This document shows positions 1 to 21,695 of a DNA stretch of 64,000 nt, in pieces (position 1 is the first letter of the stretch; the number at the start of each line of letters is the position of its first letter). Source of the stretch: a virus (Duplodnaviria > Caudoviricetes). The notes under the pieces are model-generated. The model searched no databases. It was not told the origin of the DNA and saw nothing but the letters and a program-made list of their open reading frames with translations. A program made the translations under genes and the position numbers. The stretch is from IMG/VR virus record IMGVR_UViG_3300020577_006545, positions 23,074 through 87,073 of that record. The stretch is one strand, 5' to 3'.

Positions 1-312
1 TTTAGAAAATTGATATCCACGAGAATTACTATATCTATTTTGATTTTTATTTTTACTTGTATTCATTCTTAAAAACGCAAAGGACATTCTGCGTTTATTT
101 ATACCGTTTGTAAATTTTGTTAATAACCAATGTGACACATAATGCTCTCTTGCAGAGAGCGTCACCAAATTTTCTTTTTTATTTGTCCCACCTAGACTTT
201 TAGGGATTATATGATGTTTTTCAAAATACTTATTTTGAAAAACATTTCTTTTAAGGGCATTATCTATAATTTTATTATACCAATTATAATATTTATTTTC
301 AATAAAATACAT
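1..312 (-). CDS. HNH homing endonuclease, truncated by the window edge (not in ORF track)
   Basis: Manual translation from ATG at 312: MYFIENKYYNWYNKII...EKHHIIPKSLGGTNKKENLVTLSAREHYVSHWLLTKF; same HHIIP...GG...NLV.L.AREH motif as ORF 57347. Confidence 0.85.
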   Translation of the reverse strand, partial: MYFIENKYYNWYNKIIDNALKRNVFQNKYFEKHHIIPKSLGGTNKKENLVTLSAREHYVSHWLLTKFTNGINKRRMSFAFLRMNTSKNKNQNRYSNSRGYQFSK

Positions 313-338: not shown

Positions 339-386
339 AAATTTTGCCTAGTTAAAGTTCTTTATTGAATTCTCTAGGCAAAATTT
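339..386. repeat. 13-bp perfect inverted repeat AAATTTTGCCTAG/CTAGGCAAAATTT; possible terminator or processing hairpin after the Ro60 operon
   Basis: Arms at 339-351 and 374-386, overlapping the end of ORF 352-507. Confidence 0.55.
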
Positions 387-507
387 CCCACCCGTCATTG
401 AACTTACAAAGAGGGCAATTTTCTTCTTGTTGCCACTCTTCGTAAGTGTAGTGATGGTCGCATTCTGGACAGACCAGAGTTTTTGTATCTCTAATCTTAT
501 CCGTCAT
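352..507 (-). CDS. 51-aa zinc-ribbon protein (not in ORF track)
   Basis: MTDKIRDTKTLVCPECDHHYTYEEWQQEENCPLCKFNDGWEILPREFNKEL; two CxxC pairs; ATG 1 nt after the Ro60 stop. Confidence 0.65.
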   Translation of the reverse strand: MTDKIRDTKTLVCPECDHHYTYEEWQQEENCPLCKFNDGWEILPREFNKEL

Positions 508-508
508 A

Positions 509-1975
509 CTAAATCTCTACTTGATGAACTGCATTCAACAGTGCTTCTTTGTCTTGCTCAAGAAGTTTCATTACATCAAAAATCTTTTCACTGAAACCAG
601 CAAGTGCGAACACTTTGTTTTCAGGAAATTGAAGACTTCCATAACCTTGCAAGTCAAAACTATAGATGTAAGGGTCGCTTCCAACCGATTTCTTATAGTT
701 CTGGAAAGATGCATCTGGTCTGTTACTTCTGTAACCACCTGTCACCCACGCTTGCATGTCTGACAAGACAATAATTCTGTCAAACTTCAATTTCTTTTCT
801 GTAATCTTATCAAAGATACAGTTGAAGTTCGTTCCCCCACCGTGAAAACCAATTGCGTCTACAATTGATTTGAGGCTGTTGCCAGCGTCAATTCTTTTGA
901 TAGTTGCACTGTCGTCAAATGTTAGAACAACAGAAGTATCTGGATTTCTCTTGTGAATAGCGGCGGCAAATAGAGAACCAATTTCACTTGGCTTTCCACT
1001 CATTGAACCTGAAACATCAAGAGCGATTAAAGTTTCACCTTCAAGTTCTGGAACATTGTTCACAGAAATATCAAGTGCTTTACTCAATGCGTTCAAAACT
1101 TTTTTTGAAAGTTTCACATCTGCATCATAAACTTTTTCAATCTCTTTGATTGCTGTCATAAATCTAAATGGTAGAATTAAGGATTTCTTAATTGCTACTT
1201 CATTAGTTAATTGACGGCAAGCCTCATCAACCATTTCTGGTGCTTGAGTAATTATGTTTCTCAGGTTTCTAAGAAGAGCGAATATACCAAGTTTTTTAGT
1301 CTCAAGCAATTCTTTCCAAGCCTTACCTTTCAGTTCGGCTACTTCTTCTTCACCTTCTGCTTTACCAGCCTCACTCAACATTGCTTCCCAAGTATCAACA
1401 TTCTTGAGTTTTCCAGACATTAAGTCTTTGAACACTTGAACATTTTTTTCACTTGGCTTTGGGTGAATGAGGTTGAAAGCATCAACCATTCCAAGTTCTT
1501 TTCCAGAACCAGCGTATTTAGCAAGTTGATAACCATCAAACTTGTTCAACGCTCTTGCCAAACCATCTTTCAATGAATTTGGAAGTGGCTTACCATACTT
1601 ATTCATGTAATAAGCGAGAATTTCAGTAATATCGTCTGCACGATACACAACCTTTTCATAGAAAGGTCTTGTCCATTGCTCACCTTTTACTTGTTTTGCA
1701 ATCTCACCTGCTACTGCGTGTGTGATTGAGCGCATACCAAACTGTGTTCTTGCAAACACTGCGGCCTTTGCCGCAAATTTCTTGTCTTTCAACTGTGAAA
1801 TTAGTTGTGAAACTTTCTCAAGAGTTTCGTTAGAACCTCTATAAAATTGTTCACCTGCGAATGAAGTCAAGAGAATAGAAATTAATTCCAACTCTGCACT
1901 TTCTTGATGCGCGTCGCCACCAGCATAGTTTTGTATTGCTGGTGCCTTTTGTCTCGTTTTGTTAAACTTTGACAT
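509..1975 (-). CDS. rsr: Ro60/TROVE-domain RNA-binding protein with C-terminal vWA domain
   Basis: N-terminal NYAGGDA, motifs GMRS, LAKY, VDTWE, ALLRNLRN; MIDAS-like DVSGSM and IIVLSDMQ; GGAGGT Shine-Dalgarno. Confidence 0.93.
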   Translation of the reverse strand: MSKFNKTRQKAPAIQNYAGGDAHQESAELELISILLTSFAGEQFYRGSNETLEKVSQLISQLKDKKFAAKAAVFARTQFGMRSITHAVAGEIAKQVKGEQWTRPFYEKVVYRADDITEILAYYMNKYGKPLPNSLKDGLARALNKFDGYQLAKYAGSGKELGMVDAFNLIHPKPSEKNVQVFKDLMSGKLKNVDTWEAMLSEAGKAEGEEEVAELKGKAWKELLETKKLGIFALLRNLRNIITQAPEMVDEACRQLTNEVAIKKSLILPFRFMTAIKEIEKVYDADVKLSKKVLNALSKALDISVNNVPELEGETLIALDVSGSMSGKPSEIGSLFAAAIHKRNPDTSVVLTFDDSATIKRIDAGNSLKSIVDAIGFHGGGTNFNCIFDKITEKKLKFDRIIVLSDMQAWVTGGYRSNRPDASFQNYKKSVGSDPYIYSFDLQGYGSLQFPENKVFALAGFSEKIFDVMKLLEQDKEALLNAVHQVEI

Positions 1976-2022
1976 ATCTTACCTCCAGTTCCCTTTCGGG
2001 ACAAATTAGAACAAATAATAAT

Positions 2023-2086
2023 GTGGAGAAAACCAAGAAGGGGGTTTTTCTATTAATGGTTGAAGTATCCCTTCTTTCACTACCAC
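2023..2086 (-). ncRNA. Y-RNA-like unit 1 (short, minimal insert)
   Basis: Transcript GUGGUAGUGAAAGAAGGGAUACUUC...GAAAAACCCCCUUCUUGGUUUUCUCCAC; terminal stem plus internal stem; directly upstream of Ro60. Confidence 0.7.
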
Positions 2087-2103
2087 TTTTATTAGTGCAA
2101 AAT

Positions 2104-2194
2104 ACGGAGAAAATCTATAAGAGAATTTTTTAAGGAGTTGAACCTTAAACCATTATGAGTGGTTTAACCGAAGTATCTCTTATATTACTGCCGT
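2104..2194 (-). ncRNA. Y-RNA-like unit 2 with anticodon-arm-like (loop CUCAUAA) and T-arm-like inserts
   Basis: Same scaffold; insert UUAAACCA-CUCAUAA-UGGUUUAA then AAGG-UUCAACU-CCUU. Confidence 0.72.
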
Positions 2195-2220
2195 TTTATT
2201 TAGTACATTCACAAACTAAT

Positions 2221-2347
2221 GCGGAGAAAATTGTAAAGGAAATTTTTTAGGCGCTCTACCAACTGAGCTACATACCTTTCGGTATGACAGGACTTGAACC
2301 TGCGACTTCCCGCTTAATAGGCGATGAAATCCTTTACTTACTACCGT
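2221..2347 (-). ncRNA. yrlA: YrlA-like Y RNA containing a circularly permuted tRNA module
   Basis: Order on transcript: CGC-CUAUUAA-GCG, variable GAAGUC, T arm CAGG-UUCAAGU-CCUG, acceptor-like stem CAUACC-GAAA-GGUAUG, D arm GCUC-AGUUGGUA-GAGC, all enclosed by the shared scaffold. Confidence 0.85.
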
Positions 2348-2360
2348 CTTTAATTAGTGC

Positions 2361-2430
2361 ATTGCGAAGAAAAACGAGAAGAGAGTTTTTTTTCACCAAA
2401 TTGAAGTAACCCTTCTCTTACTGTCGCAAT
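2361..2430 (-). ncRNA. Y-RNA-like unit 4 (first transcribed, minimal insert)
   Basis: 7-bp terminal stem AUUGCGA/UCGCAAU, CAGUAA bulge, GAGAAGGG/CUCUCUUCUC stem, UACUUC motif. Confidence 0.7.
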
Positions 2431-2434
2431 TATT

Positions 2435-2463
2435 ATCTTACCCCATATGTAAGAATGCGTCAA
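2435..2463 (-). promoter_or_regulatory. sigma70-type promoter for the Y RNA array and Ro60
   Basis: TTGACG-17 nt-TAAGAT on the minus strand; predicted start site at about the 5' end of unit 4. Confidence 0.75.
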
Positions 2464-2598
2464 ATGAAATTTAATTTTTTTTATTTTTTTCTTTTAATTA
2501 AGGAAAATGCACATCACTTGACGAGAAATCAAAAAGCCCTTATAATTGAACCCGTCAGGGTGATAAGGAACAAGTGTACTGTACAGTACAGGAAAACT

Positions 2599-2835
2599 AT
2601 GAGCGAAAAACAGTTTAAAATAGGCGACAAAGTAATTGTGATAGGCAAATATGAAGCAGATAACTTTTGGGTTGGTGATATAGAACAAATAGATGAAAAT
2701 CAAATTTATATAAAAGTTGGAAATCAAGGATTGGGAGTTGATATAAATGATTTAGAACATTATGATAAGAATATCAATTGGGTAGAGTTTTATAAAAATA
2801 AATACCCTCACCCAGAATTCTGGGAAGGAGATTGA
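2599..2835 (+). CDS. hypothetical protein (likely start 2599 rather than 2455)
   Basis: AGGA SD before ATG 2599; FKIGDKVIVIG SH3/KOW-like start. Confidence 0.5.
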   Translation: MSEKQFKIGDKVIVIGKYEADNFWVGDIEQIDENQIYIKVGNQGLGVDINDLEHYDKNINWVEFYKNKYPHPEFWEGD

Positions 2836-3169: not shown

Positions 3170-4186
3170 ATGGGAATTGCTTGGGACAGAATTGTTGTTG
3201 AAAATGCACTCCAAGAAATTCTTGGCGAGCCGAAGATTTCTAAAAACGGTAAAGAATGGCAATATAACTCACATTACACAAGTGATAATAAAAGAAAACT
3301 TTATGTTAATGTGGAAAAGCACGGCGTATTCAACGATTTCAAATCAGGCGAAAAAGGTTCGTTTGAAAGATTGATCGCAGATTACAATGGCTGGTCAGAG
3401 GATGAAGCAATCCGTCATCTTATAGCAAATTTCGCCTCTAAAATGAATGGTGTAACAATGATTGGCACCACTATAAAGAAAAAAGACCCTGTTGTAAAAA
3501 ATGGTAATTTACCAGAACATTCCTACAAAATAAAACATAACGATAAGTATTCTCTTCCTTATATTAAGTATTTGCAGAGCAGAGGAATGCCAGATAGTTT
3601 CATCTATAATTGTTATTATTCTATTGCTAAAGTGATGAATGGCAAACCATTTGAAATGAAAAATTATGTAATTATTCCGTATCTTGATGAGTTTGATAAA
3701 GTGATTTATTGGACTGGAAGATGTATATATGAAAACAAACGGCCAAAATATTACAATTGTCCAGAAGCAGATGCATCACACTTTGTTTACAATGTGTTCA
3801 CTGATGTACTTGAAGTTGTTATCACAGAGGGTGTTCTTGATGCTATCAAGTTTGGTAAAAATGGTATAGCAACTGGTGGTAAATCAGTAAGTGATTTTCA
3901 AATTGACGCTATAGTGGCAAGAAATTTTAAGAGAATTATTCTTGTTCCAGACAATGAAGAATATGAGAAAGGACCAAAAGCAACTATTGAATTATTCAAA
4001 AAATTAAGAGAGCGTGGACAAAATGTATTCATCTTTAATTGGATTTCTTATGGTAAGAAGATTAGATTAAAAGTGAAAGACTTCGCTTCATTTACTGAGA
4101 TAGAACATTTTAAGGTTAAAGACCTTGAGAAACATTTGATTGATAATGATTTTGAAGCACAAACAATTTATATGGTGAGGGACTAA
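3170..4186 (+). CDS. DNA primase (Toprim, phage DnaG/gp61-like)
   Basis: YLQSRG, IIPY, WTGR, TEGVLDA and PDN Toprim motifs; N-terminal Zn-binding-like domain lacks cysteines. Confidence 0.85.
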   Translation: MGIAWDRIVVENALQEILGEPKISKNGKEWQYNSHYTSDNKRKLYVNVEKHGVFNDFKSGEKGSFERLIADYNGWSEDEAIRHLIANFASKMNGVTMIGTTIKKKDPVVKNGNLPEHSYKIKHNDKYSLPYIKYLQSRGMPDSFIYNCYYSIAKVMNGKPFEMKNYVIIPYLDEFDKVIYWTGRCIYENKRPKYYNCPEADASHFVYNVFTDVLEVVITEGVLDAIKFGKNGIATGGKSVSDFQIDAIVARNFKRIILVPDNEEYEKGPKATIELFKKLRERGQNVFIFNWISYGKKIRLKVKDFASFTEIEHFKVKDLEKHLIDNDFEAQTIYMVRD

Positions 4187-13151: not shown

Positions 13152-14480
13152 ATGAGTAATATTCAAAATGGACAAGTAGCTTTTGTTGTAGGGGATGGAT
13201 ACTTCGGTCTGTCAAACCCAGCGGCAATAAATAACAATCCTGCATTAGCAGTTGATAGCGGTCTAACAAAGATCGCAAAAAATATGAAACGAATACTTGA
13301 GAAGATGGGTTTCTCAAGAGTTGTGTATGTGTCAGTATCTGGACACCCACACGCTCCACTTGAAGGGATCGCTTATCACATTGGTAATCAACTAGGCAAC
13401 CCAAACCATCAAGACCCATTTGAAAGATTAAATCCAGTTGAAAAATTTGACAGACTTGTAGAACAATTCAGGCCGACACTAGTTGTATCTGTTCACGATC
13501 TATGGATGCTATTCACACCGTTCTTATCAGCATATAGAGAAAACTTTACGTGGGTTCAATATGATCCAGTAGAAGCAGATTATTATCCACAAACAGTAGT
13601 ATATTCTCTTCCAACTAACCCAGCAATACAACCAATTCCAATCGCAGACGTTTTGAAAAACGCAAACTATGTAATTGCATATAATACATTTGGCGCACAG
13701 GGATTAAAAGCGATGGGGAGAGAACCAAATAAATGTATTCATAATGGTTTAAATCCAAGAGAAATTTATGAAATAGAAAATAGACAGGTTTGTCTTGATA
13801 GAAGACGAGCGATTGGCATTCAAGATGATTGGACTATGTTTTTTCACATGGGGAGAAACTCGGTTAGAAAGCGTCCAGATATTATGTTAGAAGCATGGTT
13901 TAAATTTACTCAATTAGTTGAAAAAACTGGTAAACCACTTAAAGCAAAATTCTATGTTCATACAGACAGATATTCATTTAATGGATTTGATATTCCATCA
14001 ATCATAAAAAGACTTGGTATTGAAAAATCAGTAGTTATGCCAAGTGAATTGAATTTCAGTTTAGATGATTTGAATATCTTCTATAATGCAAGCGATATCT
14101 ATGTGGGTCTTCCAGGTGGCGAAGGGCACGGTCTTGGTTTTAGTGAAGCGATGTATCTTGGTAAACCATTAGTGTATGGGTGTTATGGTGGTCATATAAC
14201 TTATTGCAAAGGCGCTGGTATTGAAATTCCAGCGATACAATTTTTAAGTGAACAGAATATTGATGCACCAAGAGCAGTAATCAGTTCTACTAAAGCGGCT
14301 CAGGCTATGTTTGATTTATACAGTTCACCCGAATTAAGAAAACAATATGGAGATGTTGGCAGAGAAATTGCTAAGAAAGAATTAACATGGGATGTGTTGG
14401 ATAGCAAATTTGAAGAAGCGTTTAATGAAGCATTAAGTGGTGCAAGAAATTCTTCTATCTTTGCTAAGAAAGTTGTATGA
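13152..14480 (+). CDS. GT-B glycosyltransferase (GT4-like)
   Basis: GRNSVRKRPD, YNASDIYV, GEGHGLGFSEAM. Confidence 0.85.
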   Translation: MSNIQNGQVAFVVGDGYFGLSNPAAINNNPALAVDSGLTKIAKNMKRILEKMGFSRVVYVSVSGHPHAPLEGIAYHIGNQLGNPNHQDPFERLNPVEKFDRLVEQFRPTLVVSVHDLWMLFTPFLSAYRENFTWVQYDPVEADYYPQTVVYSLPTNPAIQPIPIADVLKNANYVIAYNTFGAQGLKAMGREPNKCIHNGLNPREIYEIENRQVCLDRRRAIGIQDDWTMFFHMGRNSVRKRPDIMLEAWFKFTQLVEKTGKPLKAKFYVHTDRYSFNGFDIPSIIKRLGIEKSVVMPSELNFSLDDLNIFYNASDIYVGLPGGEGHGLGFSEAMYLGKPLVYGCYGGHITYCKGAGIEIPAIQFLSEQNIDAPRAVISSTKAAQAMFDLYSSPELRKQYGDVGREIAKKELTWDVLDSKFEEAFNEALSGARNSSIFAKKVV

Positions 14481-14738
14481 AAGGTATTTTCAAATATCCC
14501 AAGAAATCAAGCGACGATAACGATAAGAAATGTAAAGATTTTCTAATGACGAATTATAATTGCAGTGATGATGATGCAAACAAGAGAACTGAGGCGATAA
14601 AAGAAATTTGTATTGACGTTATGAATAAATTGTTATTAACACAATTGAAGATTGAAACGAGAGCAGACTTAATAAATCTTGTTAAACAATACAACACAAT
14701 ATCTAATGCAAAGATTATAGAATATTTGGAGAGAGAAT

Positions 14739-14930
14739 TTGGCAAAGACTAAGAAATGTCCTGATTGTGATGGAAGAGGCGAGAAGTACATCGTTGGCTT
14801 TGGCTTAGTCAGTAGATTTGTTGATGAAGCTACTAAATGTGAGAAATGTAATGGGTCTGGTAAAGTATTATATAAAAATTCAATACTTGAATTTTGGAAG
14901 AGAATGAGAAATTTTGGGAGAAGTGAATGA
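14739..14930 (+). CDS. small DnaJ-type zinc-finger protein
   Basis: CPDCDGRG and CEKCNGSG. Confidence 0.5.
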   Translation: MAKTKKCPDCDGRGEKYIVGFGLVSRFVDEATKCEKCNGSGKVLYKNSILEFWKRMRNFGRSE

Positions 14931-15138
14931 TTGATAAAATATTTGAAGGGACACATATAGAAAAAATATTTGAAAAAATAGAACAGGATATAAATAGAAT
15001 AACATGCAATGTTACTGAACATGATTATGAAAAACCAGATTACATTAAAATGTTAGGAAGTGAACATTCAATTTATGGTAAAAAATGTAAGAGATGCAAT
15101 GCATTTGAATTTGTGGCAGACCCAAACAAGGAGACTAA

Positions 15139-16272
15139 ATGAAAAAAGTTTTATATATGGCAATTAAAGCGGATAACGGATACGGTATATCTGCTAAATC
15201 AATTTTGGATACTTTCTATAAAATGAAAGATGTTCAAGTTGACGTTCTTTATTTAAATGATCCGACATTCCGTAATCAGAAACTTGCAGATGAATATGAT
15301 ATAGCTGTTCATCATACAGCACCAAACAATTTAATTCAGGATTATCAAAATAATGGATACATCAAGATGGCTATGTCAAGAGCAAAAAAGAAATACCAAT
15401 ATATTCTTTGGGAAAGTGACAGACTTCCATCAGGATTAACGGAATTTTTTAAATCAGATGTTCTTGATGGTTTTATTTGTCCTTCGCATTTTACAGAAGG
15501 GTTGGTTAAAGGATTTGGAAAAGAAGTTCATTATATTCCGATCACACAGGACGATATAAATTATCATCCTGATAAAAGACCAAAGAATAGTCCTACATTT
15601 AATGTAGTAACAGTCGCACAACTATCTGTTAGAAAAGCGATAGATGTATCGGTTTGTGCTTTTGTAAATGCATTTAAAGACATTCCAGATAAAGTGAAGT
15701 ATTATATTAAGATTGGTGAGAAACTTGAGAACACTGACATCAATCAATTAATTAAAGGAAACATTGGGAGAAGTTTATTACCAAATAGAGGCAATATATA
15801 TGTCATTGATAGATTACTATCACAATCTGATTTAGAAAATCTATACCTCAATTCACATTGTTATCTTCATCTTTCTAGAGGCGAAGGATTTGGTATGACG
15901 CCGTTAACAGCGATCAATTACGGGCTTCCAGTTGTCTACAGTGATTGGTCTGCACATACAGAATTTTTAAGTAAAGACAAAAAGTCATTGCCAGTAGATG
16001 GTAGATTGGACTTTGCACATTCAATGGATGTTAGATTTGGATTTGAAGCAGGTATGAAATGGTATGAGTGTAATGTAAGCGATGCCGCTGATAAACTGAG
16101 GGCAATGTATGATAAATGGGCTGGTGGAAGATTAAAATTTAATGCTCCTGATGTAGTTAATGAATATAAAGAAGAGGCTGTAATCTCAAACATTGCTAAA
16201 TTAATCGGTATTGAAAAAGTAGAATTCAAAGCGATCCAAATGGTTGGTGGAATAAATATGGTGGAGGTTTAA
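15139..16272 (+). CDS. GT-B glycosyltransferase (GT4-like)
   Basis: LWESDRLP, RKAID, SRGEGFGMTPL. Confidence 0.85.
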   Translation: MKKVLYMAIKADNGYGISAKSILDTFYKMKDVQVDVLYLNDPTFRNQKLADEYDIAVHHTAPNNLIQDYQNNGYIKMAMSRAKKKYQYILWESDRLPSGLTEFFKSDVLDGFICPSHFTEGLVKGFGKEVHYIPITQDDINYHPDKRPKNSPTFNVVTVAQLSVRKAIDVSVCAFVNAFKDIPDKVKYYIKIGEKLENTDINQLIKGNIGRSLLPNRGNIYVIDRLLSQSDLENLYLNSHCYLHLSRGEGFGMTPLTAINYGLPVVYSDWSAHTEFLSKDKKSLPVDGRLDFAHSMDVRFGFEAGMKWYECNVSDAADKLRAMYDKWAGGRLKFNAPDVVNEYKEEAVISNIAKLIGIEKVEFKAIQMVGGINMVEV

Positions 16273-16962
16273 GATGACTATAAAAATAATAGACAAATGT
16301 AATGATTGTGGACATTATAGTAATGCTGAAAATTTTAGAATGATATTTGGTAATTTTTTAATCGGCAGAAGTAAATGTCCTAATTGTAAATCCAAAAATA
16401 TAGAACAAAATTGGTGTCCTCCAAAACCAAAAGCACCTCCGCCAGGCCAAGGAATTAAAAAAAATAAAAAAAAATAATGGAAAAACCAAAACCACCAATA
16501 GGTAAGGTTTTTTATGAAGGTGATGAGCCAAGAGTTTTAGCAAGATACATTTATGAAAATGAAATTCATATGTTTAGTACACTATGTCCAAAGTGTGGCT
16601 CTTCTTTAAAAAAGAAATTTTTATTTTTTCGTTCAAAACATTGCATACAATGGAGATGTAGTAACTATTATGGAAACCATCAAAGTAAATAAAAAGGTAT
16701 GGTTAGTGTTTGATAGATACCCACAATCACCAGAGTTAAGTGTTGTTTGCTTTACATCAAAAGTAAAAGCAAAGAAATGGATGGATGAAATGAATGGATT
16801 AGTTGATGATGATGAAAGAAATTTTTACAATTTAAAAGAAGATGAGATGCAATTTTATGGACCATTTCCATTTAAGTTAAAAGGCGAATAATTTTTAATA
16901 TCGCTTGCTTTATGGCGATGCTTATGATAAGATATATTATATTCTCATCAAACGCAAGTTGA

Positions 16963-17178
16963 ATGTCTGAAAGTAATTTCATAGATTATTATCGTATTCT
17001 TGAATTATTAGAAGATGAAGATAAGTTTGTTGATTTTCTTATAGAAAATCAAAAGCTACATCCGATAAGCGTTATCGTAATGAGTGCATTACGCCCACCC
17101 GATATAATTCCACTGAGTTTTTTCGTTGAACGACATAAACCGGAATTGTATGAGAAATATAAATTATTATTAACGTAA
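16963..17178 (+). CDS. YEKYKLL-family protein
   Basis: DEDKFVDFL ... KPELYEKYKLLLT; own promoter TTGCTT-17-TAAGAT at 16905-16933. Confidence 0.65.
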   Translation: MSESNFIDYYRILELLEDEDKFVDFLIENQKLHPISVIVMSALRPPDIIPLSFFVERHKPELYEKYKLLLT

Positions 17179-17358
17179 AATGATTAGTATTGTATTCACA
17201 ATTATATTGTTAAAAATTATTTTCTTTAGAGATTTGAACTATAAATGGTTTAATGGTGGTAATTGTCTTTGTGGCGGTAAATTTAAATTGCTTCATCAAA
17301 GTAAAATTAGAAAAGACTATCAATGTAATATTTGTAAAATGGTAGTAGTGAGGAACTT

Positions 17359-18495
17359 TTGAAAATTAGAATTATTGGCAACTATAGAAAAATTCCAGAT
17401 GGATACGGGACGATGTGCCTTGAATACATTAGGGCATTGATAGAAAACGACTTTAAGGATTTTACGTTGCATCAGGCATTTACAGGAAATTGGCCAGAAG
17501 CAGAAAAAGATATACAACAATACGAAAATAAAAATTTAGATTATGATGTTAATTTGATAATGTTGACTGCCGATAATGTCAACGTATTTTGTGAACCAAA
17601 TAAAAAAAATATTTTATTTACTATGTGGGAGACTGATCGCATACCGTCTCACTGGACAGAATTATGTAATAGATGTGATGCGGTTGTAGTTCCGTCAACA
17701 TTCTGTCAGGATGTGTTTAAAAAATCTGGTGTCACAGTCCCAGTTCATATCCTTCCAATTCCAACTGATGTACATAAATTTGAAAAAGTGCAGGTAAATC
17801 CAGACCTTGTTGAAATGACAGAGGGTAAACTAATCTTTTATTCAATTTTTCAATGGGGTGAGAGGAAAAATCCAAAAGCATTATTGAATTCTTATTATTC
17901 ATCTTTTGGTAGTAAAGATGATGTTCTTCTTATAATAAAAACACATATTAATGGAACTGATAACGAGCATCTTGAAGTAGAAAACAAGGTTAAATCAATT
18001 AGAAATAACATAAAAAGAAATGGTAGTGATTATCCTAAAGTAATGTTGATTTCAAATAATCTAAACGAAGATCAAATAGCACAAATGCATAAGGTTGGAA
18101 ATATATATCTTTCATCAACAAGAGGTGAAGGATGGAATTTGCCGGCGTTTGATGCAGCTCTTGCAGGTAATCATATAATAGCAACTGCTTTTAGTTCTCA
18201 TATGGATTTTATAGATACTTATAATCATTTTAAATATCAAATATATAATAGAGTTCCATTCCAATTAGAACACTGTCATAATGCTGGTCAACTATATACA
18301 GCAAATCAAAAATGGGCAAGTGTAAACATACATGAATTTTCAAACAGAATGAAAATGGCGTATGAAGATTGGAAACAAAATGGCAAATTAACCCTTCAAA
18401 ATAGAAGAGATGAATACTCAAATTACCTAAAAACTCGTTACTCACGAAAGGAAATAGGACAAAAATTACTTGCAATTATTAAAGAAATAGCATAG
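17359..18495 (+). CDS. GT-B glycosyltransferase (GT4-like)
   Basis: MWETDRIP, FQWGERKNP, TRGEGWNLPAFDA. Confidence 0.85.
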   Translation: MKIRIIGNYRKIPDGYGTMCLEYIRALIENDFKDFTLHQAFTGNWPEAEKDIQQYENKNLDYDVNLIMLTADNVNVFCEPNKKNILFTMWETDRIPSHWTELCNRCDAVVVPSTFCQDVFKKSGVTVPVHILPIPTDVHKFEKVQVNPDLVEMTEGKLIFYSIFQWGERKNPKALLNSYYSSFGSKDDVLLIIKTHINGTDNEHLEVENKVKSIRNNIKRNGSDYPKVMLISNNLNEDQIAQMHKVGNIYLSSTRGEGWNLPAFDAALAGNHIIATAFSSHMDFIDTYNHFKYQIYNRVPFQLEHCHNAGQLYTANQKWASVNIHEFSNRMKMAYEDWKQNGKLTLQNRRDEYSNYLKTRYSRKEIGQKLLAIIKEIA

Positions 18496-18505
18496 AATAT
18501 ACTTT

Positions 18506-19123
18506 ATGTTATACCGTGTAAACCTTGAATTTAAACCCACCAAAATTCAATTACTTTCTGGTGTAGTTAGTTTTAACACTAATTGGATTTTAGACAGACA
18601 AAAATTTATTGATTGGATTTATAAAGAACCAATTCTGGTTGATCCGATGAAGCCTAATTCATCTTATCAACATGATATTAGGCAAAAAATGAGGGACGCT
18701 GGCAGTAACGGGTACAGCCACAGCGGAATGTTTAAAGTAGATAGTATAGAAATCTCATCAAATATTGATGAGAAAGAACTGACTGCTGACAAATTGAAAA
18801 ATTTACAAGGTGAGTATGTTGAAATAGCGTGTAAATTAAATTCTAAGTGTGAAAAGGTGTATGTATCGTTTTTAATTAATGTTGATTTATATGAAGGTAT
18901 TCACCGTCTTTTTAGAAGTTTGTTTGTTATCCCTAATGATTGGCTGATTGAAGAAAAAGGTTTCCCTTTAAATGAATATTCTTTAAGAGAAGAATGTTAT
19001 CAAGAACTTATTGCGAAAGAAGTTAATTTGGTTGCGTATGGTTATGCAATCACACAAAAGGATACATTTTTGCAAATAATGAATCCATCGCTTTATGAAA
19101 AATATGCGTTATTGAGAAATTGA
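18506..19123 (+). CDS. YEKYKLL-family protein (long)
   Basis: Ends NPSLYEKYALLRN; leaderless promoter TTGCAA-17-TAGAAT at 18470-18498. Confidence 0.65.
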   Translation: MLYRVNLEFKPTKIQLLSGVVSFNTNWILDRQKFIDWIYKEPILVDPMKPNSSYQHDIRQKMRDAGSNGYSHSGMFKVDSIEISSNIDEKELTADKLKNLQGEYVEIACKLNSKCEKVYVSFLINVDLYEGIHRLFRSLFVIPNDWLIEEKGFPLNEYSLREECYQELIAKEVNLVAYGYAITQKDTFLQIMNPSLYEKYALLRN

Positions 19124-19124
19124 T

Positions 19125-19358
19125 ATGAACAAATATGTAAAAGAAACTATAGAATTGATTAAATCACTTGAAGAAGAAGAGATACTTGAAATTCTTCTCT
19201 CTGAAAAGAGAGACAATCCTGTTGAACTAATGCCATTTATCAACAGGGACAAAGTTACTTTAGGGATTATTGTTCATAAGTTTCGTCCAGAAGTTGTAGA
19301 GAAATATAAGTTACTAATAGATGAGAAAGAAGATGAAGAACAATACTACGACGATTGA
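19125..19358 (+). CDS. YEKYKLL-family protein
   Basis: LEEEEILEIL ... RPEVVEKYKLLID. Confidence 0.65.
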   Translation: MNKYVKETIELIKSLEEEEILEILLSEKRDNPVELMPFINRDKVTLGIIVHKFRPEVVEKYKLLIDEKEDEEQYYDD

Positions 19359-19602
19359 TGAATTTAATACTACTCCATCAAGATTGCTTAGAAATTGTCT
19401 TGAGAATTTTAATAGTGGGTCGTATCTTATTTATAGATTTGGTAGAGAATTTTTGTCTTTAAGCGAAGATGAGAAAATAGAATTTATTATTTTATTAAAT
19501 CAAACAGAAGATATTAAAAACACATATTTATCAAGTCTAACAGCATTGATTATGGCAAGCGATATGGAGTTTTATGAGAAATACAAAGTTATCATTAACT
19601 GA
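19321..19602 (+). CDS. YEKYKLL-family protein
   Basis: LSEDEKIEFI ... MEFYEKYKVII. Confidence 0.6.
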   Translation: MRKKMKNNTTTIDEFNTTPSRLLRNCLENFNSGSYLIYRFGREFLSLSEDEKIEFIILLNQTEDIKNTYLSSLTALIMASDMEFYEKYKVIIN

Positions 19603-19921
19603 TATTAAAAGATACGGATTTAAGTATTTTCTACTTGAGTCGGATCATCCTGAGAATAAGGAAGGAAGTTTTGCGTGGAGTAAACTAAAATTTGTTTATG
19701 CAAACAAAGGGAAGGTGTATGTGGAAAATCAAATAGATTTATTAGATTTTGAAAAAATGCTTAAAGAAGCAACAGAAGAAGAATTGATAGAGTTCGTCAC
19801 TACTGCGAAACTTGTTTTTATTAATCTAAAAGCAAGAGAGATGTATGGGGAAAGAGGTGAGAAATATTTTGCCGCTGTGATACCAAAGTTCTATAAAAAA
19901 TATAAGTTACTATTTGCATGA
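19574..19921 (+). CDS. YEKYKLL-family protein
   Basis: TEEELIEFV ... PKFYKKYKLLFA. Confidence 0.65.
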   Translation: MRNTKLSLTDIKRYGFKYFLLESDHPENKEGSFAWSKLKFVYANKGKVYVENQIDLLDFEKMLKEATEEELIEFVTTAKLVFINLKAREMYGERGEKYFAAVIPKFYKKYKLLFA

Positions 19922-20526
19922 TAGGAAACAACATAAAACTCGTTATATTTGATCTTTACAATACTCTTGTCGTCCCAGGGCGACAGGCTAATAGCCCATA
20001 TGAAAGACTATTTAAAGCCGCTGAATTGCCAAGAGAAGAAGCCACTAAACTTAGAACAGTATTACTAACACAAAAATTTCTATTTGATGATTTTGTTAAA
20101 AAATTTTTACCACAAATTCCACAACAACAGGTCTTGATGATTAGAGACTATCTTGAAAAAGAATTAGCCAATACAAAACTTTTTCCAGAAGTAAATGAAG
20201 TGTTGGAGAAATTATATACTAAATATGATCTTTGTTTGATATCAAATGCGTCAGCAGATTTTAAAAGACCTTTCTTTAGGTTAGGACTTGATAAATATTT
20301 TGATAAGGTTATATTTTCGTGTGACGTTGGTTACACGAAGCCAAATCCAGAAATATATAAAATGGGAATGATGGGACATAGACCTGACGAAATACTAATG
20401 ATTGGCGACAGTATTAAATCTGATTATAATGGACCAAAAGCTGTAGGGTTTCATGCAAAAGTTATTGACAGAAAAGGAGTTAAAGATGTCAAAAATAAAA
20501 TCACTAATTTAACAGAACTTACTTGA
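19918..20526 (+). CDS. HAD-superfamily hydrolase
   Basis: IFDLYNTL, ISN, KP, MIGDSIKSD. Confidence 0.85.
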   Translation: MIGNNIKLVIFDLYNTLVVPGRQANSPYERLFKAAELPREEATKLRTVLLTQKFLFDDFVKKFLPQIPQQQVLMIRDYLEKELANTKLFPEVNEVLEKLYTKYDLCLISNASADFKRPFFRLGLDKYFDKVIFSCDVGYTKPNPEIYKMGMMGHRPDEILMIGDSIKSDYNGPKAVGFHAKVIDRKGVKDVKNKITNLTELT

Positions 20527-20558
20527 TTTTACATACCTTTGCCGATATAATTTAAACG

Positions 20559-21695
20559 GTGAAGGTAATTGGAATAAAGTACTATGGGGCTTTCTATGAC
20601 AATAGCGGATATGGCGAAGCCGCTAGATATAATGTCAAAGCAATTAATGAATTAGGCATTCCAATTAAAATAACAAATGTTTCATTTGCGCCACAACCTT
20701 CCTTATTTAAGGAGGACGTTCAATTGTTTGAAGAACTTTCAAACAGAAACATAGAATATAATCTTTGTATTTATCATTTTACTCCTGAGAATGTCCCGCG
20801 TTTTCTTGAAAAAGACAAAATTAATGTTATACATACTACATGGGAAACGAATAGGTTACACCCACATTGGGTTCCTATTTGTAATTCAGTAAACGCAATT
20901 CTTGTTCCTTCTTCTTGGAATATTGAAGTGTTTAAAAATTCCGGTGTTACTGTCCCTATACTAAAATTCCCACATATATTTAATGTGAACAAATTTGATG
21001 GAGTTGAACCATTAAAAGCATTTGAACGATTTGATAATACTTTAAAATTTTATTCTGTATTTCAATGGAGCGAAAGAAAAAATCCGTATGGACTGATTAG
21101 AACATATTTGTCAGAGTTTGATGAAAAAGACGACGTTGTTCTTTTCCTTAAAACTTATGTTGTAAATGGGACAAGAAAAGATGCTCTGTGGGTTATTGAC
21201 GAAATTAATAATATTAAAAGTTCTATAACAAAAGATGTTGGGCAGGGTTTTCCAAAGATGGTTGCGCTTACGGATATAATGGATGAAAAGATGTTAAACT
21301 CTCTTCATAAATCTATGGATGTTTATCTTGCTCCTGTAAGGGGAGAGGGGTTTGGTATGCCAATTCTTGATGCTGTATTAGCAGAAAGAAATATAATAGC
21401 TACGGGATATTCAGCACAGACTGATTTTCTAAATAGAGACATTCATTCTCTATTAAATTACCAGTTAACAACTGTTTGCGACATGAATTGGATACCGTGG
21501 TATTTAAGCGATCAGTACTGGGCTGAACCTAACCTTGCACAATTTGCTGAAAAAATGAGGTGGTATTATATGTCTTGGAAAGATGGAGGTTTACCATTTA
21601 AAGAAGAAATAAAAGAATATGCAAAATTCATTAAGAATGTTTATTCAAAAGAAAGTATTATTGAAACATTACTATTACAATTGGAGGAAATTTAG
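20559..21695 (+). CDS. GT-B glycosyltransferase (GT4-like), paralog of 17359
   Basis: TWETNRLH, FQWSERKNP, RGEGFGMPILDA; promoter TTGATT-17-TATAAT 7 nt before GTG. Confidence 0.85.
   Translation: MKVIGIKYYGAFYDNSGYGEAARYNVKAINELGIPIKITNVSFAPQPSLFKEDVQLFEELSNRNIEYNLCIYHFTPENVPRFLEKDKINVIHTTWETNRLHPHWVPICNSVNAILVPSSWNIEVFKNSGVTVPILKFPHIFNVNKFDGVEPLKAFERFDNTLKFYSVFQWSERKNPYGLIRTYLSEFDEKDDVVLFLKTYVVNGTRKDALWVIDEINNIKSSITKDVGQGFPKMVALTDIMDEKMLNSLHKSMDVYLAPVRGEGFGMPILDAVLAERNIIATGYSAQTDFLNRDIHSLLNYQLTTVCDMNWIPWYLSDQYWAEPNLAQFAEKMRWYYMSWKDGGLPFKEEIKEYAKFIKNVYSKESIIETLLLQLEEI

What the first reader, a model, noticed from the sequence alone, without database searches (positions are those of the whole stretch)
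509..2463. Phage Ro60 operon headed by a tandem array of four Y-RNA-like units with a shared scaffold and variable inserts
Seen: four units (2023-2086, 2104-2194, 2221-2347, 2361-2430) share, on the transcript, terminal stem / (U/C)AGU(A/G)A opposite UUUUCU / 8-9 bp stem / UACUUC (AUUUC in unit 3) / insert / A-rich tract. The 8-9 bp stem differs in sequence in every unit yet keeps pairing (AAGAAGGG:CCCCUUCUU, UAUAAGAGA:UCUCUUAUA, GUAAAGGA:UCCUUUAC, GAGAAGGG:CUCUCUUCUC), which is covariation. Inserts range from about 10 nt to a whole permuted tRNA. One TTGACG-17-TAAGAT promoter drives array then protein. Known: Ro60 with YrlA/YrlB RNAs occurs in bacteria and some phages. Inference: a modular RNP in which one Ro60 is loaded with four interchangeable RNAs carrying different payloads.
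Basis: partly seen in the sequence, partly recalled or inferred. Interest (0 to 1): 0.85.

Follow-up and report, generated by a model that had tools for sequence, protein, structure and literature searches.

The report
Four Y RNAs beside phage Ro60
A large uncultured phage encodes the ring-shaped RNA-binding protein Ro60 and, just ahead of the gene, four small partner RNAs ("Y RNAs") with one common docking handle and different tRNA-like inserts; the pairing is already known, and this is an expanded, uncatalogued branch that also occurs in several hundred other phage and bacterial loci.

Summary

A covariance model built from the four units finds the same handle next to Ro60 relatives:
- 67 of 68 non-duplicate IMG/VR loci have it, with 1-6 units each.
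- 186 more hits lie in 80 loci from prokaryote genome assemblies (GTDB species set).
- Every hit is on the Ro60 strand, and most lie within 600 nt upstream.
- Both helices covary: 97.7% of cells are paired, and 13 of 14 pairs show double changes.

The handle consensus is: end stem, bulged U, AG:CU, YGA, an 8-9 bp stem, UUACUUC, payload, an A-rich tract, return stem, RA-UUUU-CU.

In the window, unit 3 is a YrlA-type permuted tRNA mimic (Rfam YrlA 44.8 bits, below the threshold of 69). Unit 2 carries an anticodon-like arm plus a T arm. Units 1 and 4 are minimal.

UUACUUC handles also occur in Streptomyces, Gordonia, Caulobacter, Bacillus and crAss001 phages. These are therefore bacterial-type Y RNAs, and I class them as a new variant of a known kind. 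Four-unit arrays are common in this clade.

This scan has found the same handle family before in other genomes.

The parts
2435..2463 (-). Sigma-70-like promoter TTGACG-17-TAAGAT. The predicted start falls at or within a few bases of the 5' end of unit 4.
   Evidence: 9 of 12 matches. The hexamers and spacing are kept in L008 while the spacer letters differ.
2361..2430 (-). Unit 4, first in the transcript: a minimal Y RNA consisting of the handle plus a loop of about 22 nt.
   Evidence: R1 81.8 bits and R2 70.6 bits. Fold z-score -3.4. A near-identical orthologue is at L008:384-444.
2348..2363 (-). Spacer carrying UGCACUAA followed by an A-rich run. Similar spacers lie at 2195-2220 and 2087-2103. 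Candidate processing site.
   Evidence: The UGCAMUA-plus-A-rich spacer also precedes units in L008.
2221..2347 (-). Unit 3: a YrlA-type Y RNA. The handle carries a short V hairpin (CGC-CUAUUAA-GCG), a T arm, a closed acceptor-like stem and a D arm, which together form a circularly permuted tRNA mimic.
   Evidence: Rfam YrlA 44.8 bits, E 1e-8, below the gathering score of 69. R2 62.6 bits. Fold. Orthologue at L008:1302-1440.
2104..2194 (-). Unit 2: the handle carries GGUU, an anticodon-like hairpin (7-nt loop CUCAUAA) and a T-like arm (loop UUCAACU). It has no acceptor or D stem.
   Evidence: The orthologue L008:460-550 keeps the loop while the stem letters change in a compensatory way.
2023..2086 (-). 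Unit 1: a minimal Y RNA consisting of the handle plus a loop of about 25 nt.
   Evidence: R1 82.3 bits and R2 70.1 bits. Orthologue at L008:1709-1771.
1982..2002 (-). Small CCC-GAAA-GGG hairpin followed directly by the GGAGG ribosome-binding site. Possibly the protected 5' end of the processed Ro60 mRNA.
   Evidence: Sequence. Identical in L008. The function is inferred.
509..1975 (-). Ro60/Rsr-type protein, 488 aa: TROVE domain plus a vWA domain with a DxSGS metal-site motif.
   Evidence: Pfam TROVE 63.2 bits against a cut-off of 23. PDB 9KOP/9L5Y (phiLo Ro60) E 9e-22 over residues 14-481; also Xenopus Ro60, human Ro60 and Deinococcus Rsr. The D-S-G-S columns are invariant in the clade alignment.
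352..507 (-). 51-aa CxxC...CxxC zinc-ribbon ORF directly after Ro60. It is not conserved beside Ro60 in relatives, so it is probably not a core part.
1..312 (-). HNH endonuclease ORF that runs off the window. Probably a mobile insertion and not part of the system.
   Evidence: Pfam HNH. A different HNH ORF splits the array in L008.

Best explanation
The locus is a phage Ro60-Y RNA operon.

Transcription and processing. One promoter transcribes four small RNAs and then the Ro60 mRNA. The precursor is probably cut in the short AU-rich spacers. That would give four discrete Y RNAs and an mRNA that begins with a small protective hairpin.

The shared handle. Each RNA closes its 5' and 3' ends into the same handle: end stem, bulged U, AG:CU, YGA opposite UUUU, an 8-9 bp stem, then UUACUUC and an A-rich strand flanking the insert. 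The handle is the Ro60 docking site. It is a diverged form of the bacterial GNCGAA/CGAA stem and of the animal bulged helix.

The inserts. Each insert points away from the protein, and the four differ:
- unit 3: a full permuted tRNA look-alike of the YrlA type;
- unit 2: an anticodon-like arm plus a T arm;
- units 1 and 4: two short loops.

Consequence. The phage would make four kinds of Ro60 particle. By analogy with characterised systems, the RNAs gate the Ro60 ring and tether it to other proteins, here most likely tRNA-recognising enzymes or an exoribonuclease such as host PNPase. This would let the phage reshape or protect RNA, and the tRNA pool in particular, during infection.

What is shown: the gene family, the RNA architecture, its covariation, and its near-obligate, same-strand linkage to Ro60.
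What is inferred: processing, Ro60 binding, the partners of the inserts, and the role in infection.
For: Ro60 identity.

Architecture of the four units.

Family and covariation: (97.7% paired; 13 of 14 pairs with double changes; slid controls about 55%).

Linkage to Ro60:
- 67 of 68 non-duplicate IMG/VR Ro60 loci carry units. The one exception has only 98 nt of upstream sequence.
- Across all 78 fetched IMG/VR loci, all 206 hits are on the Ro60 strand.
- Of the 171 units in the 68 non-duplicate loci, 160 are upstream, and 92.5% of those lie within 600 nt of the start codon.
- All 186 hits in genome-assembly loci are also on the Ro60 strand.
- The 87-kb record that holds the window has only these four hits.

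Polycistronic layout: the median spacer between units is 19 nt. The promoter, spacer motif and pre-start hairpin are conserved in L008. No terminator lies in between.

Unit 3 as a YrlA-type RNA. Accepted phage YrlA-type RNAs score the same 42-44 bits.

Handle shared with cultured phages.

Published precedent:
- YrlA and YrlB cut from one precursor upstream of rsr in M. smegmatis, and tRNA-like modules (PMC4201824).
- phiLo Ro60 binds two upstream Y-like RNAs and assembles with PNPase (PMC12135203).
- Y RNAs are modular tethers (10.1101/312249).
Against: The strict published motif GNCGAAN0-1G is absent from all four units, and occurs near the 5' end in only 2 of 352 family members.

No unit reaches an Rfam gathering score.

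Unit 1 alone does not fold better than shuffles (z -1.0).

In one 476-kb phage, two units lie about 135-160 kb from the Ro60 gene, inside tRNA arrays. Adjacency is therefore not absolute.

The proposed extra G.U and A-U pairs that would mimic the animal Ro site are compatible with the data but show no covariation.
Confidence: 0.8

Rival explanations
1. The units are a cis-acting leader of the Ro60 mRNA, not free-standing RNAs. In this reading they stabilise the message, attenuate it, or serve as autoregulatory operator sites to which Ro60 binds to control its own synthesis.
For: They lie in the 5' leader on the same strand, with no terminator before the gene. 92.5% of upstream units in relatives lie within 600 nt of the start codon.
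Against: The copy number varies from 1 to 6 or more, with unrelated inserts. In 11 of 171 cases the units lie downstream of the gene, as they also do in crAss001. Two units in a 476-kb phage sit in distant tRNA arrays. HNH genes can sit between units and the gene. tRNA-like inserts have no obvious role in a leader. Characterised homologues are discrete RNAs (PMC4201824).
Confidence: 0.06
2. The handle is real but docks a different protein, for example a host RNase, a tRNA enzyme or another phage protein. Ro60 would then be only a co-regulated neighbour.
For: Binding was not tested. The most invariant element, UUACUUC, is not the published Ro60 motif. Some units lie far from Ro60.
Against: Ro60 is the only gene consistently next to the units. 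Downstream genes differ between relatives, and so do the chromosomal neighbours in bacteria. The handle type changes with the Ro60 clade: UUUUCU in this clade, UGGUUAA in actinophages. The position of YGA near the 5' end matches the CGA of the published Ro-binding motif (PMC4201824). phiLo Ro60 binds its upstream RNAs (PMC12135203).
Confidence: 0.07
3. The units are decaying or rearranged tRNA genes and repeat debris left by recombination in a tRNA region. In this reading they have no function of their own.
For: Relatives often have tRNA clusters on the same strand next to the array. Unit 3 gives a weak tRNA hit. Some units in relatives overlap annotated tRNAs.
Against: ARAGORN finds no tRNA in the window. 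Two units have no tRNA-like part at all yet keep the handle. The handle helices covary across 352 units while single-stranded motifs stay 95-100% invariant, which indicates purifying selection on an RNA structure. Orthologous units are kept between the window and L008 at 75% Ro60 identity.
Confidence: 0.02

Closest known systems
Bacterial Rsr (Ro60) with YrlA and YrlB Y RNAs (Salmonella Typhimurium; Mycobacterium smegmatis; Chen et al. 2014, PMC4201824; Rfam RF02553)
   Same: Small RNAs are encoded within a few hundred bases of the Ro60 gene on the same strand. In M. smegmatis two are cut from one precursor upstream of rsr. A 5'/3' closing stem carries the protein site. One RNA has a permuted T arm, closed acceptor stem and D arm, with a V hairpin. 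A second RNA is simpler.
   Different: There are four RNAs here, not two. The handle reads RGYRA ... UUACUUC ... UUUUCU and lacks the strict GNCGAAN0-1G motif (0 of 4 units). Unit 3 scores 44.8 bits against a gathering score of 69. Unit 2 carries an anticodon-like arm plus a T arm, a payload not described in that paper.
Thermus phage phiLo Ro60 with Yrl1 and Yrl2 (PMC12135203; PDB 9KOP, 9L5Y)
   Same: This is the closest solved relative of the protein (E 9e-22 over the full length). It is a phage Ro60 with Y-like RNAs just upstream, shown there to bind the protein and to assemble with host PNPase. The phiLo upstream region also contains UUUACUUCGG.
   Different: About 25% protein identity. Two RNAs, identified through CGAA motifs. 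My handle model finds nothing in that locus. No tRNA-like payloads are described.
Deinococcus radiodurans Rsr with Yrn1/Yrn2 and PNPase (the RYPER complex), and animal Ro60 with 2-4 Y RNAs
   Same: One ring protein is served by several Y RNAs. The RNAs are modular: the stem binds Ro60 and the loop binds an effector. Near the 5' end there is a bulged pyrimidine within a helix, followed by G-A (GGUCCGA in animals, from my own knowledge of Green 1998 and Stein 2005; G-U-AG-YGA here).
   Different: No sequence match, and Rfam Y_RNA does not hit. The inserts here are parts of tRNA, not pyrimidine-rich loops. The host partner is unknown.
Unannotated handle arrays in cultured phages, seen here: Streptomyces phage Quantum, Gordonia phage Neville, Caulobacter phage CcrColossus, Bacillus phage G, Bacteroides phage crAss001
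   Same: A stem ending in G/A followed by UUACUUC (UUUCUUC in CcrColossus), then a payload that is often YrlA-like, next to a TROVE gene on the same strand. Quantum has three units in tandem.
   Different: Actinophage handles read UGCGAAG on the 5' side and UGGUUAA on the 3' side, and are not found by my model. In crAss001 the units lie downstream of the gene, and one is a tRNA-shaped RNA with the handle in the anticodon position.

Membership tests
Ro60 / Rsr protein (TROVE + vWA ring) | TROVE domain over Pfam's curated cut-off | tested here: met
   PF05731, 63.2 bits against a cut-off of 23.
Ro60 / Rsr protein (TROVE + vWA ring) | C-terminal vWA domain with a metal-ion site (DxSxS) | tested here: met
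   PF25045 vWA_Ro60 scores 25.3 bits, just under its cut-off of 27.7. The D-S-G-S columns (D320, S322, G323, S324) are invariant in 11 clade members.
Ro60 / Rsr protein (TROVE + vWA ring) | Full-length similarity to Ro60 proteins of solved structure | tested here: met
   phiLo Ro60 9KOP/9L5Y at E 9e-22 over residues 14-481. Xenopus, human and Deinococcus Ro60 match over the C-terminal half.
Ro60 / Rsr protein (TROVE + vWA ring) | NCBIfam equivalog of bacterial Rsr (NF041674) | tested here: not met
   40.9 bits against a cut-off of 900. It is a diverged clade and not an equivalog of Rsr from well-studied bacteria.
Y RNA (general definition) | The 5' and 3' ends pair into a long stem with a conserved site, interrupted by an internal loop, and a variable second module | tested here: met
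   Folds; covariation; consensus.
Y RNA (general definition) | Bound and stabilised by Ro60 | not testable with these tools
   Only genomic linkage could be tested: 67 of 68 loci, always on the same strand.
YrlA (Rfam RF02553; Chen et al. 2014) | Score at or above the Rfam gathering threshold | tested here: not met
   Unit 3 scores 44.8 bits against 69, and the other units give no hit. YrlA-type RNAs of Gordonia, Streptomyces and Caulobacter phages also score only 42-44 bits.
YrlA (Rfam RF02553; Chen et al. 2014) | T arm, closed acceptor-like stem and D arm in permuted order, with a V hairpin upstream of T | tested here: met
   Unit 3 only. Unit 2 has a T-like arm only.
YrlA (Rfam RF02553; Chen et al. 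2014) | GNCGAAN0-1G motif near the 5' end | tested here: not met
   0 of 4 window units, and 2 of 352 family members within the first 30 nt. A relaxed RGYRA (AGUGA, AGCGA, AGUAA) occupies that place.
YrlA (Rfam RF02553; Chen et al. 2014) | Encoded within 4 kb of the Ro60 gene on the same strand | tested here: met
   48-455 nt upstream, on the same strand.

The most novel reading that the evidence does not exclude
The array is a display panel. A common Ro60 handle presents different parts of tRNA: the elbow, an anticodon arm with a defined 'anticodon' (CAU in unit 2), and in relatives whole tRNAs or tRNA bodies without an acceptor stem. In this reading the Ro60 particles act as decoys, sensors or recruiters aimed at particular tRNA-targeting host defences or tRNA repair and modification enzymes. 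Swapping payloads between phages would then track an arms race over the tRNA pool.
Probability: 0.2. Interest if true: 0.85.

Novelty: new variant of a known kind. Interest (0 to 1): 0.55.

Why it matters
What bacterial and phage Ro60 particles do is still largely unknown, and catalogues recognise only the YrlA tRNA-like body.

This locus and its relatives show that one branch of Ro60 comes with sets of 1-6 or more RNAs built on a single, sharply conserved handle (UUACUUC is 95-100% invariant). None of the 4227 Rfam families detects this handle. Some RNAs annotated as phage tRNAs in GenBank (csAssE-Sib, cr111_1) lie inside such units.

The payload list gives concrete, testable guesses about what Ro60 is brought to. 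It includes the tRNA elbow, an anticodon-like arm, whole tRNAs and 200-290 nt domains.

A cultured phage that has the handle, crAss001, offers a system in which to test these guesses.

Tried and rejected
- Rfam at gathering scores on the window and on 20 related loci found no Y RNA family, only tRNAs. At relaxed thresholds only unit 3 matches YrlA.
- ARAGORN found no tRNA in the window.
- Near and distant DNA search of the phage collection gave no close relative; the best was a 635-kb uncultured phage at 63%.
- Search for a conserved protein partner downstream of Ro60: none. The zinc-ribbon and HNH ORFs of the window are not shared by relatives.
- Supplementary tables of Chen et al. 2014 are not held and the 2020 Annual Review is not held. 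I therefore could not check whether any member of this clade was already listed.
- Full-text searches for the UUACUUC motif together with Y RNA returned only unrelated papers.
- Extending the handle by G.U and A-U pairs to mimic the animal Ro site: 70% and 89% of units can form them, but there is no covariation. I keep this as an analogy only.
- Consensus fold of the 205-290 nt payloads of relatives: the alignment is poor and no structure was found.
- Strict kink-turn reading of the GA/RA loop: rejected from the sequence, because the unpaired U run lies on the wrong strand.
- I did not test whether the three abundant RNAs of the Listeria phage CKA15 (PMC12282133) carry this handle.
Full report
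THE LOCUS

On the minus strand, window 1975-509 is a 488-aa ORF with a Pfam TROVE domain (63.2 bits against a cut-off of 23) and a Ro60-type vWA domain just under its cut-off. Its best solved relative is the Ro60 of Thermus phage phiLo (9KOP/9L5Y, E 9e-22, residues 14-481). Xenopus Ro60, human Ro60 and Deinococcus Rsr follow. It is not an equivalog of NCBI's bacterial Rsr model (40.9 bits against 900).

The window belongs to an 87-kb IMG/VR virus record that CheckV rates 36% complete. GC content is 31%. The surrounding module is a replication module: DNA ligase, DnaB-like helicase, UvsX-like recombinase, primase. The element is therefore a large phage.

THE FOUR UNITS

Each folds alone into the following shape:
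- an end stem;
- one bulged pyrimidine;
- a 2-bp AG:CU step;
- an asymmetric loop (URA opposite NNUUUU);
- an 8-9 bp stem;
- a loop that begins (W)UACUUC (UUUCAUC in unit 3) and ends in an A run.

Folding energies are only moderately better than shuffles (z -1.0 to -3.4). The case for the units rests on comparison with relatives.

COMPARISON WITH RELATIVES

A covariance model made from only these four sequences (R1) found units next to Ro60 relatives in viral and metagenome contigs. On the 31 units collected:
- 97.7% of cells form standard pairs, against 68% in shuffles and about 55% when partners are slid;
- 13 of 14 pairs show changes on both sides.

This alignment was fitted to the model, which favours pairing. 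The size of the effect and the slid controls leave little doubt all the same.

A second model (R2) was run over 78 Ro60 loci fetched from IMG/VR. A search with a clade alignment had found 160 relatives there. R2 gave 206 hits at E<0.01, all on the Ro60 strand. After duplicates were removed:
- 67 of 68 loci carry at least one unit; the exception has only 98 nt of upstream sequence;
- 160 of 171 units lie upstream, and 92.5% of those are within 600 nt of the start codon.

Over the 79 loci tallied (these 67 plus the window and 11 loci fetched earlier), units per locus run 1 (18 loci), 2 (25), 3 (18), 4 (11), 5 (6), 6 (1).

In the window's own 87-kb record, the four units are the only hits.

The consensus handle is NNNG-U-AG-YGA-[8-9 bp]-(U/A)UACUUC-(G/A) ... 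payload ... A-rich-[return strand]-RA-UUUU-CU-CNNN. UACUUC is 95-100% invariant and the A of YGA is 100% invariant.

NOT RESTRICTED TO PHAGES

The same Ro60 clade has 216 relatives in the GTDB species genomes. In the 80 loci fetched, R2 gave 186 hits, again all on the Ro60 strand, with up to 6-7 per locus.

Several of these loci lie on megabase contigs of Saprospiraceae, Verrucomicrobiales and Sericytochromatia. Their neighbours are ordinary chromosomal genes such as HtpG, peptidases and a beta-lactamase-fold protein.

PAYLOADS

Among the 202 units from phage and metagenome loci:
- 35 carry T and D arms in permuted (YrlA) order;
- about 24 carry a T arm only;
- 4 carry tRNA parts in normal order;
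- 23 carry 205-290 nt inserts, with no Rfam match in the six such loci scanned and, in a sample of twelve, no common fold that I could find;
- the rest are minimal.

Three GenBank 'tRNAs' lie inside units: Tyr and Lys of phage csAssE-Sib, and Gln of cr111_1.

The four units in the window:
- Unit 3 is the YrlA type. It scores 44.8 bits on Rfam YrlA (E 1e-8), below the gathering score of 69. The YrlA-type RNAs of Gordonia phage Neville, Streptomyces phage Quantum and Caulobacter phage CcrColossus score the same 42-44 bits. Its short hairpin with the 7-nt loop CUAUUAA sits where Chen et al. place the V arm, which begins with YUAY (PMC4201824, section read).
- Unit 2 carries GGUU, a hairpin with loop CUCAUAA and a T-like arm. 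The orthologue in the closest relative (L008, 75% Ro60 identity) keeps the loop while the stem changes in a compensatory way.
- Units 1 and 4 are minimal. Both have orthologues in L008 with conserved loops.

The order of units differs between the window (4-3-2-1) and L008 (4-2-3-1). In L008 a 203-aa HNH ORF and a 76-aa ORF split the array.

RELATION TO KNOWN Y RNAs

The published bacterial motif GNCGAAN0-1G is absent from the four units. Near the 5' end it occurs in only 2 of 352 family members. At that place the family reads RGYRA: AGUGA 165, AGCGA 56, AGUAA 37.

I read YGA as the counterpart of the CGA in GNCGAA, and of GGUCCGA in animal Y RNAs. AG:CU, a bulged Y, G.U and A-U could together copy the animal bulged helix. 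However, the last two pairs show no covariation, so this stays an analogy.

UUACUUC is not peculiar to this clade:
- Streptomyces phage Quantum has three tandem units reading UGCGA(A/C)(G/A)-stem-GGUUACUUC ... UGGUUAA upstream of its Ro-like gene.
- Gordonia phage Neville has two.
- CcrColossus has a unit with UUUCUUC, matched by both R2 and Rfam YrlA.
- Bacillus phage G has a stem followed by UUACUUC.
- phiLo has UUUACUUCGG upstream of its Ro60.
- crAss001 has several units in the 900-nt gap downstream of its TROVE gene. One is a tRNA-shaped RNA with the handle in the anticodon position.

The window's RNAs are therefore bacterial-type Y RNAs with a clade-specific version of a very widespread handle.

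OPERON MODEL

The TTGACG-17-TAAGAT site is conserved in L008 as TTGACA-17-TAAGAT, with different spacer letters. The predicted start falls at the first base or so of unit 4.

Spacers between units are short: the median across arrays is 19 nt. In both the window and L008 they carry UGCAMUA followed by an A run. A CCC-GAAA-GGG hairpin directly before GGAGG-N8-ATG is identical in both. No terminator-like site lies between the promoter and the gene.

This fits one precursor that is cut into Y RNAs and an mRNA, as shown for M. smegmatis YrlA and YrlB (PMC4201824). Processing itself is inferred.

FUNCTION

The following is known from experiment elsewhere:
- Y RNAs tether Ro60 to effectors and gate its cavity (10.1101/312249).
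- phiLo Ro60 binds its two upstream RNAs and assembles with host PNPase (PMC12135203).
- A structurally Ro60-like protein of coliphage Bas63 counters the Ppl defence system, and its authors suspect that neighbouring 'tRNAs' are Y RNAs (PMC11482910).
- A Listeria phage makes three very abundant RNAs upstream of an Rsr-like gene (PMC12282133).

By analogy, I propose four alternative Ro60 particles whose payloads engage tRNA-recognising proteins or an exoribonuclease. The frequent placement of arrays beside or inside phage tRNA clusters fits a role tied to the tRNA pool. None of this was tested here.

RIVAL EXPLANATIONS

I weighed three rivals and find each unlikely:
- a cis-acting leader of the Ro60 mRNA;
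- a handle that docks a protein other than Ro60;
- tRNA debris.
The reasons are given under the rival explanations.

NOVELTY

The pairing of Ro60 with Y RNAs, the modular design, tRNA mimicry and co-transcription are all published. I found three things described in no paper and in no Rfam family:
- this handle, in particular UUACUUC;
- arrays of up to six or more units;
- the payload range beyond the YrlA elbow.

A four-unit array is common within the clade. Earlier follow-ups in this scan reported the same handle family in at least 14 other genomes. I count this window as one more good example and not as a first sighting.

TOOLS NOT AVAILABLE

Noticed in passing
L005:2641-2765 and 2787-2912 (phage csAssE-Sib, OR575929.1); L006:1892-2017 (cr111_1, MT774387.1); L106:4010-4120: RNAs annotated or called as tRNA-Tyr, tRNA-Lys, tRNA-Gln and tRNA-Leu lie inside complete Y RNA handles. 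The handle strands flank the whole tRNA. The 'Tyr' has G where the universal U33 should be. They may be Y RNA payloads and not decoding tRNAs.
   Followed up: partly
L193:3670-4500 (Bacteroides phage crAss001, between gp96 TROVE and gp95): The 900-nt 'empty' gap downstream of the TROVE gene holds several UUACUUC handle units. At 3947-4090 there is a tRNA-shaped RNA (acceptor, D and T arms) whose anticodon region is replaced by a handle hairpin, which is the inverse permutation of YrlA. crAss001 is cultured, so this can be tested at the bench.
   Followed up: partly
34 of 352 family units, e.g. L075:2490-2617, L099:2468-2591, L167:2451-2579; window 2303-2321 (unit 3): In YrlA-type units the hairpin before the T arm is usually UUCGA, a 7-nt loop, then UCGAG. 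The loop reads C/A-U-NNN-A-A, and NNN varies freely (GCU, UGU, UAU, GAU, UCU, GUU, UUU, GUC, GUG, CAU). The T stem follows 3-5 nt later. By position and shape it resembles an anticodon arm more than a variable arm.
   Followed up: partly
L030, L033, L036, L039, L042, L052, L061, L072, L079, L082, L009, L010 (second unit before Ro60): Many relatives pair one minimal unit with one unit whose payload is 205-290 nt. In the six of these loci that I scanned, the payloads have no Rfam match. MAFFT plus RNAalifold on twelve of them found no common fold.
   Followed up: partly
G001:C1:233465-233602 and 257509-257619 (L105, L106; 476-kb phage that also holds L030): Two handle units sit inside large tRNA arrays about 135-160 kb from that phage's Ro60 gene. 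Units are therefore not always next to Ro60.
   Followed up: partly
L008:678-1289; window 1-312: HNH endonuclease genes keep turning up inside or beside these arrays. One splits the array in the closest relative, and one follows the zinc-ribbon gene in the window. L002 and L169 also have HNH ORFs next to Ro60.
   Followed up: no
window 13152-21695 (+): Four paralogous glycosyltransferase genes (phrog_2170), each 377-442 aa, lie within 8.5 kb in a replication module. This may be a DNA or surface sugar-modification cluster.
   Followed up: no
window 2455-2835 (+) and 2518-2546: A strong divergent promoter-like site (TTGACG-17-TATAAT, 11 of 12 matches) faces away from the Ro60 operon. It precedes a 126-aa ORF with a weak match to a phage ProQ C-terminal-like domain (E 0.007, below the cut-off), which would be a possible second RNA-binding protein next to the array.
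   Followed up: no
L003:2755-2800: Just after its single diverged unit, this 205-kb phage encodes a mini tRNA-like hairpin (acceptor stem plus T arm) that ends in an encoded ACCA.
   Followed up: no
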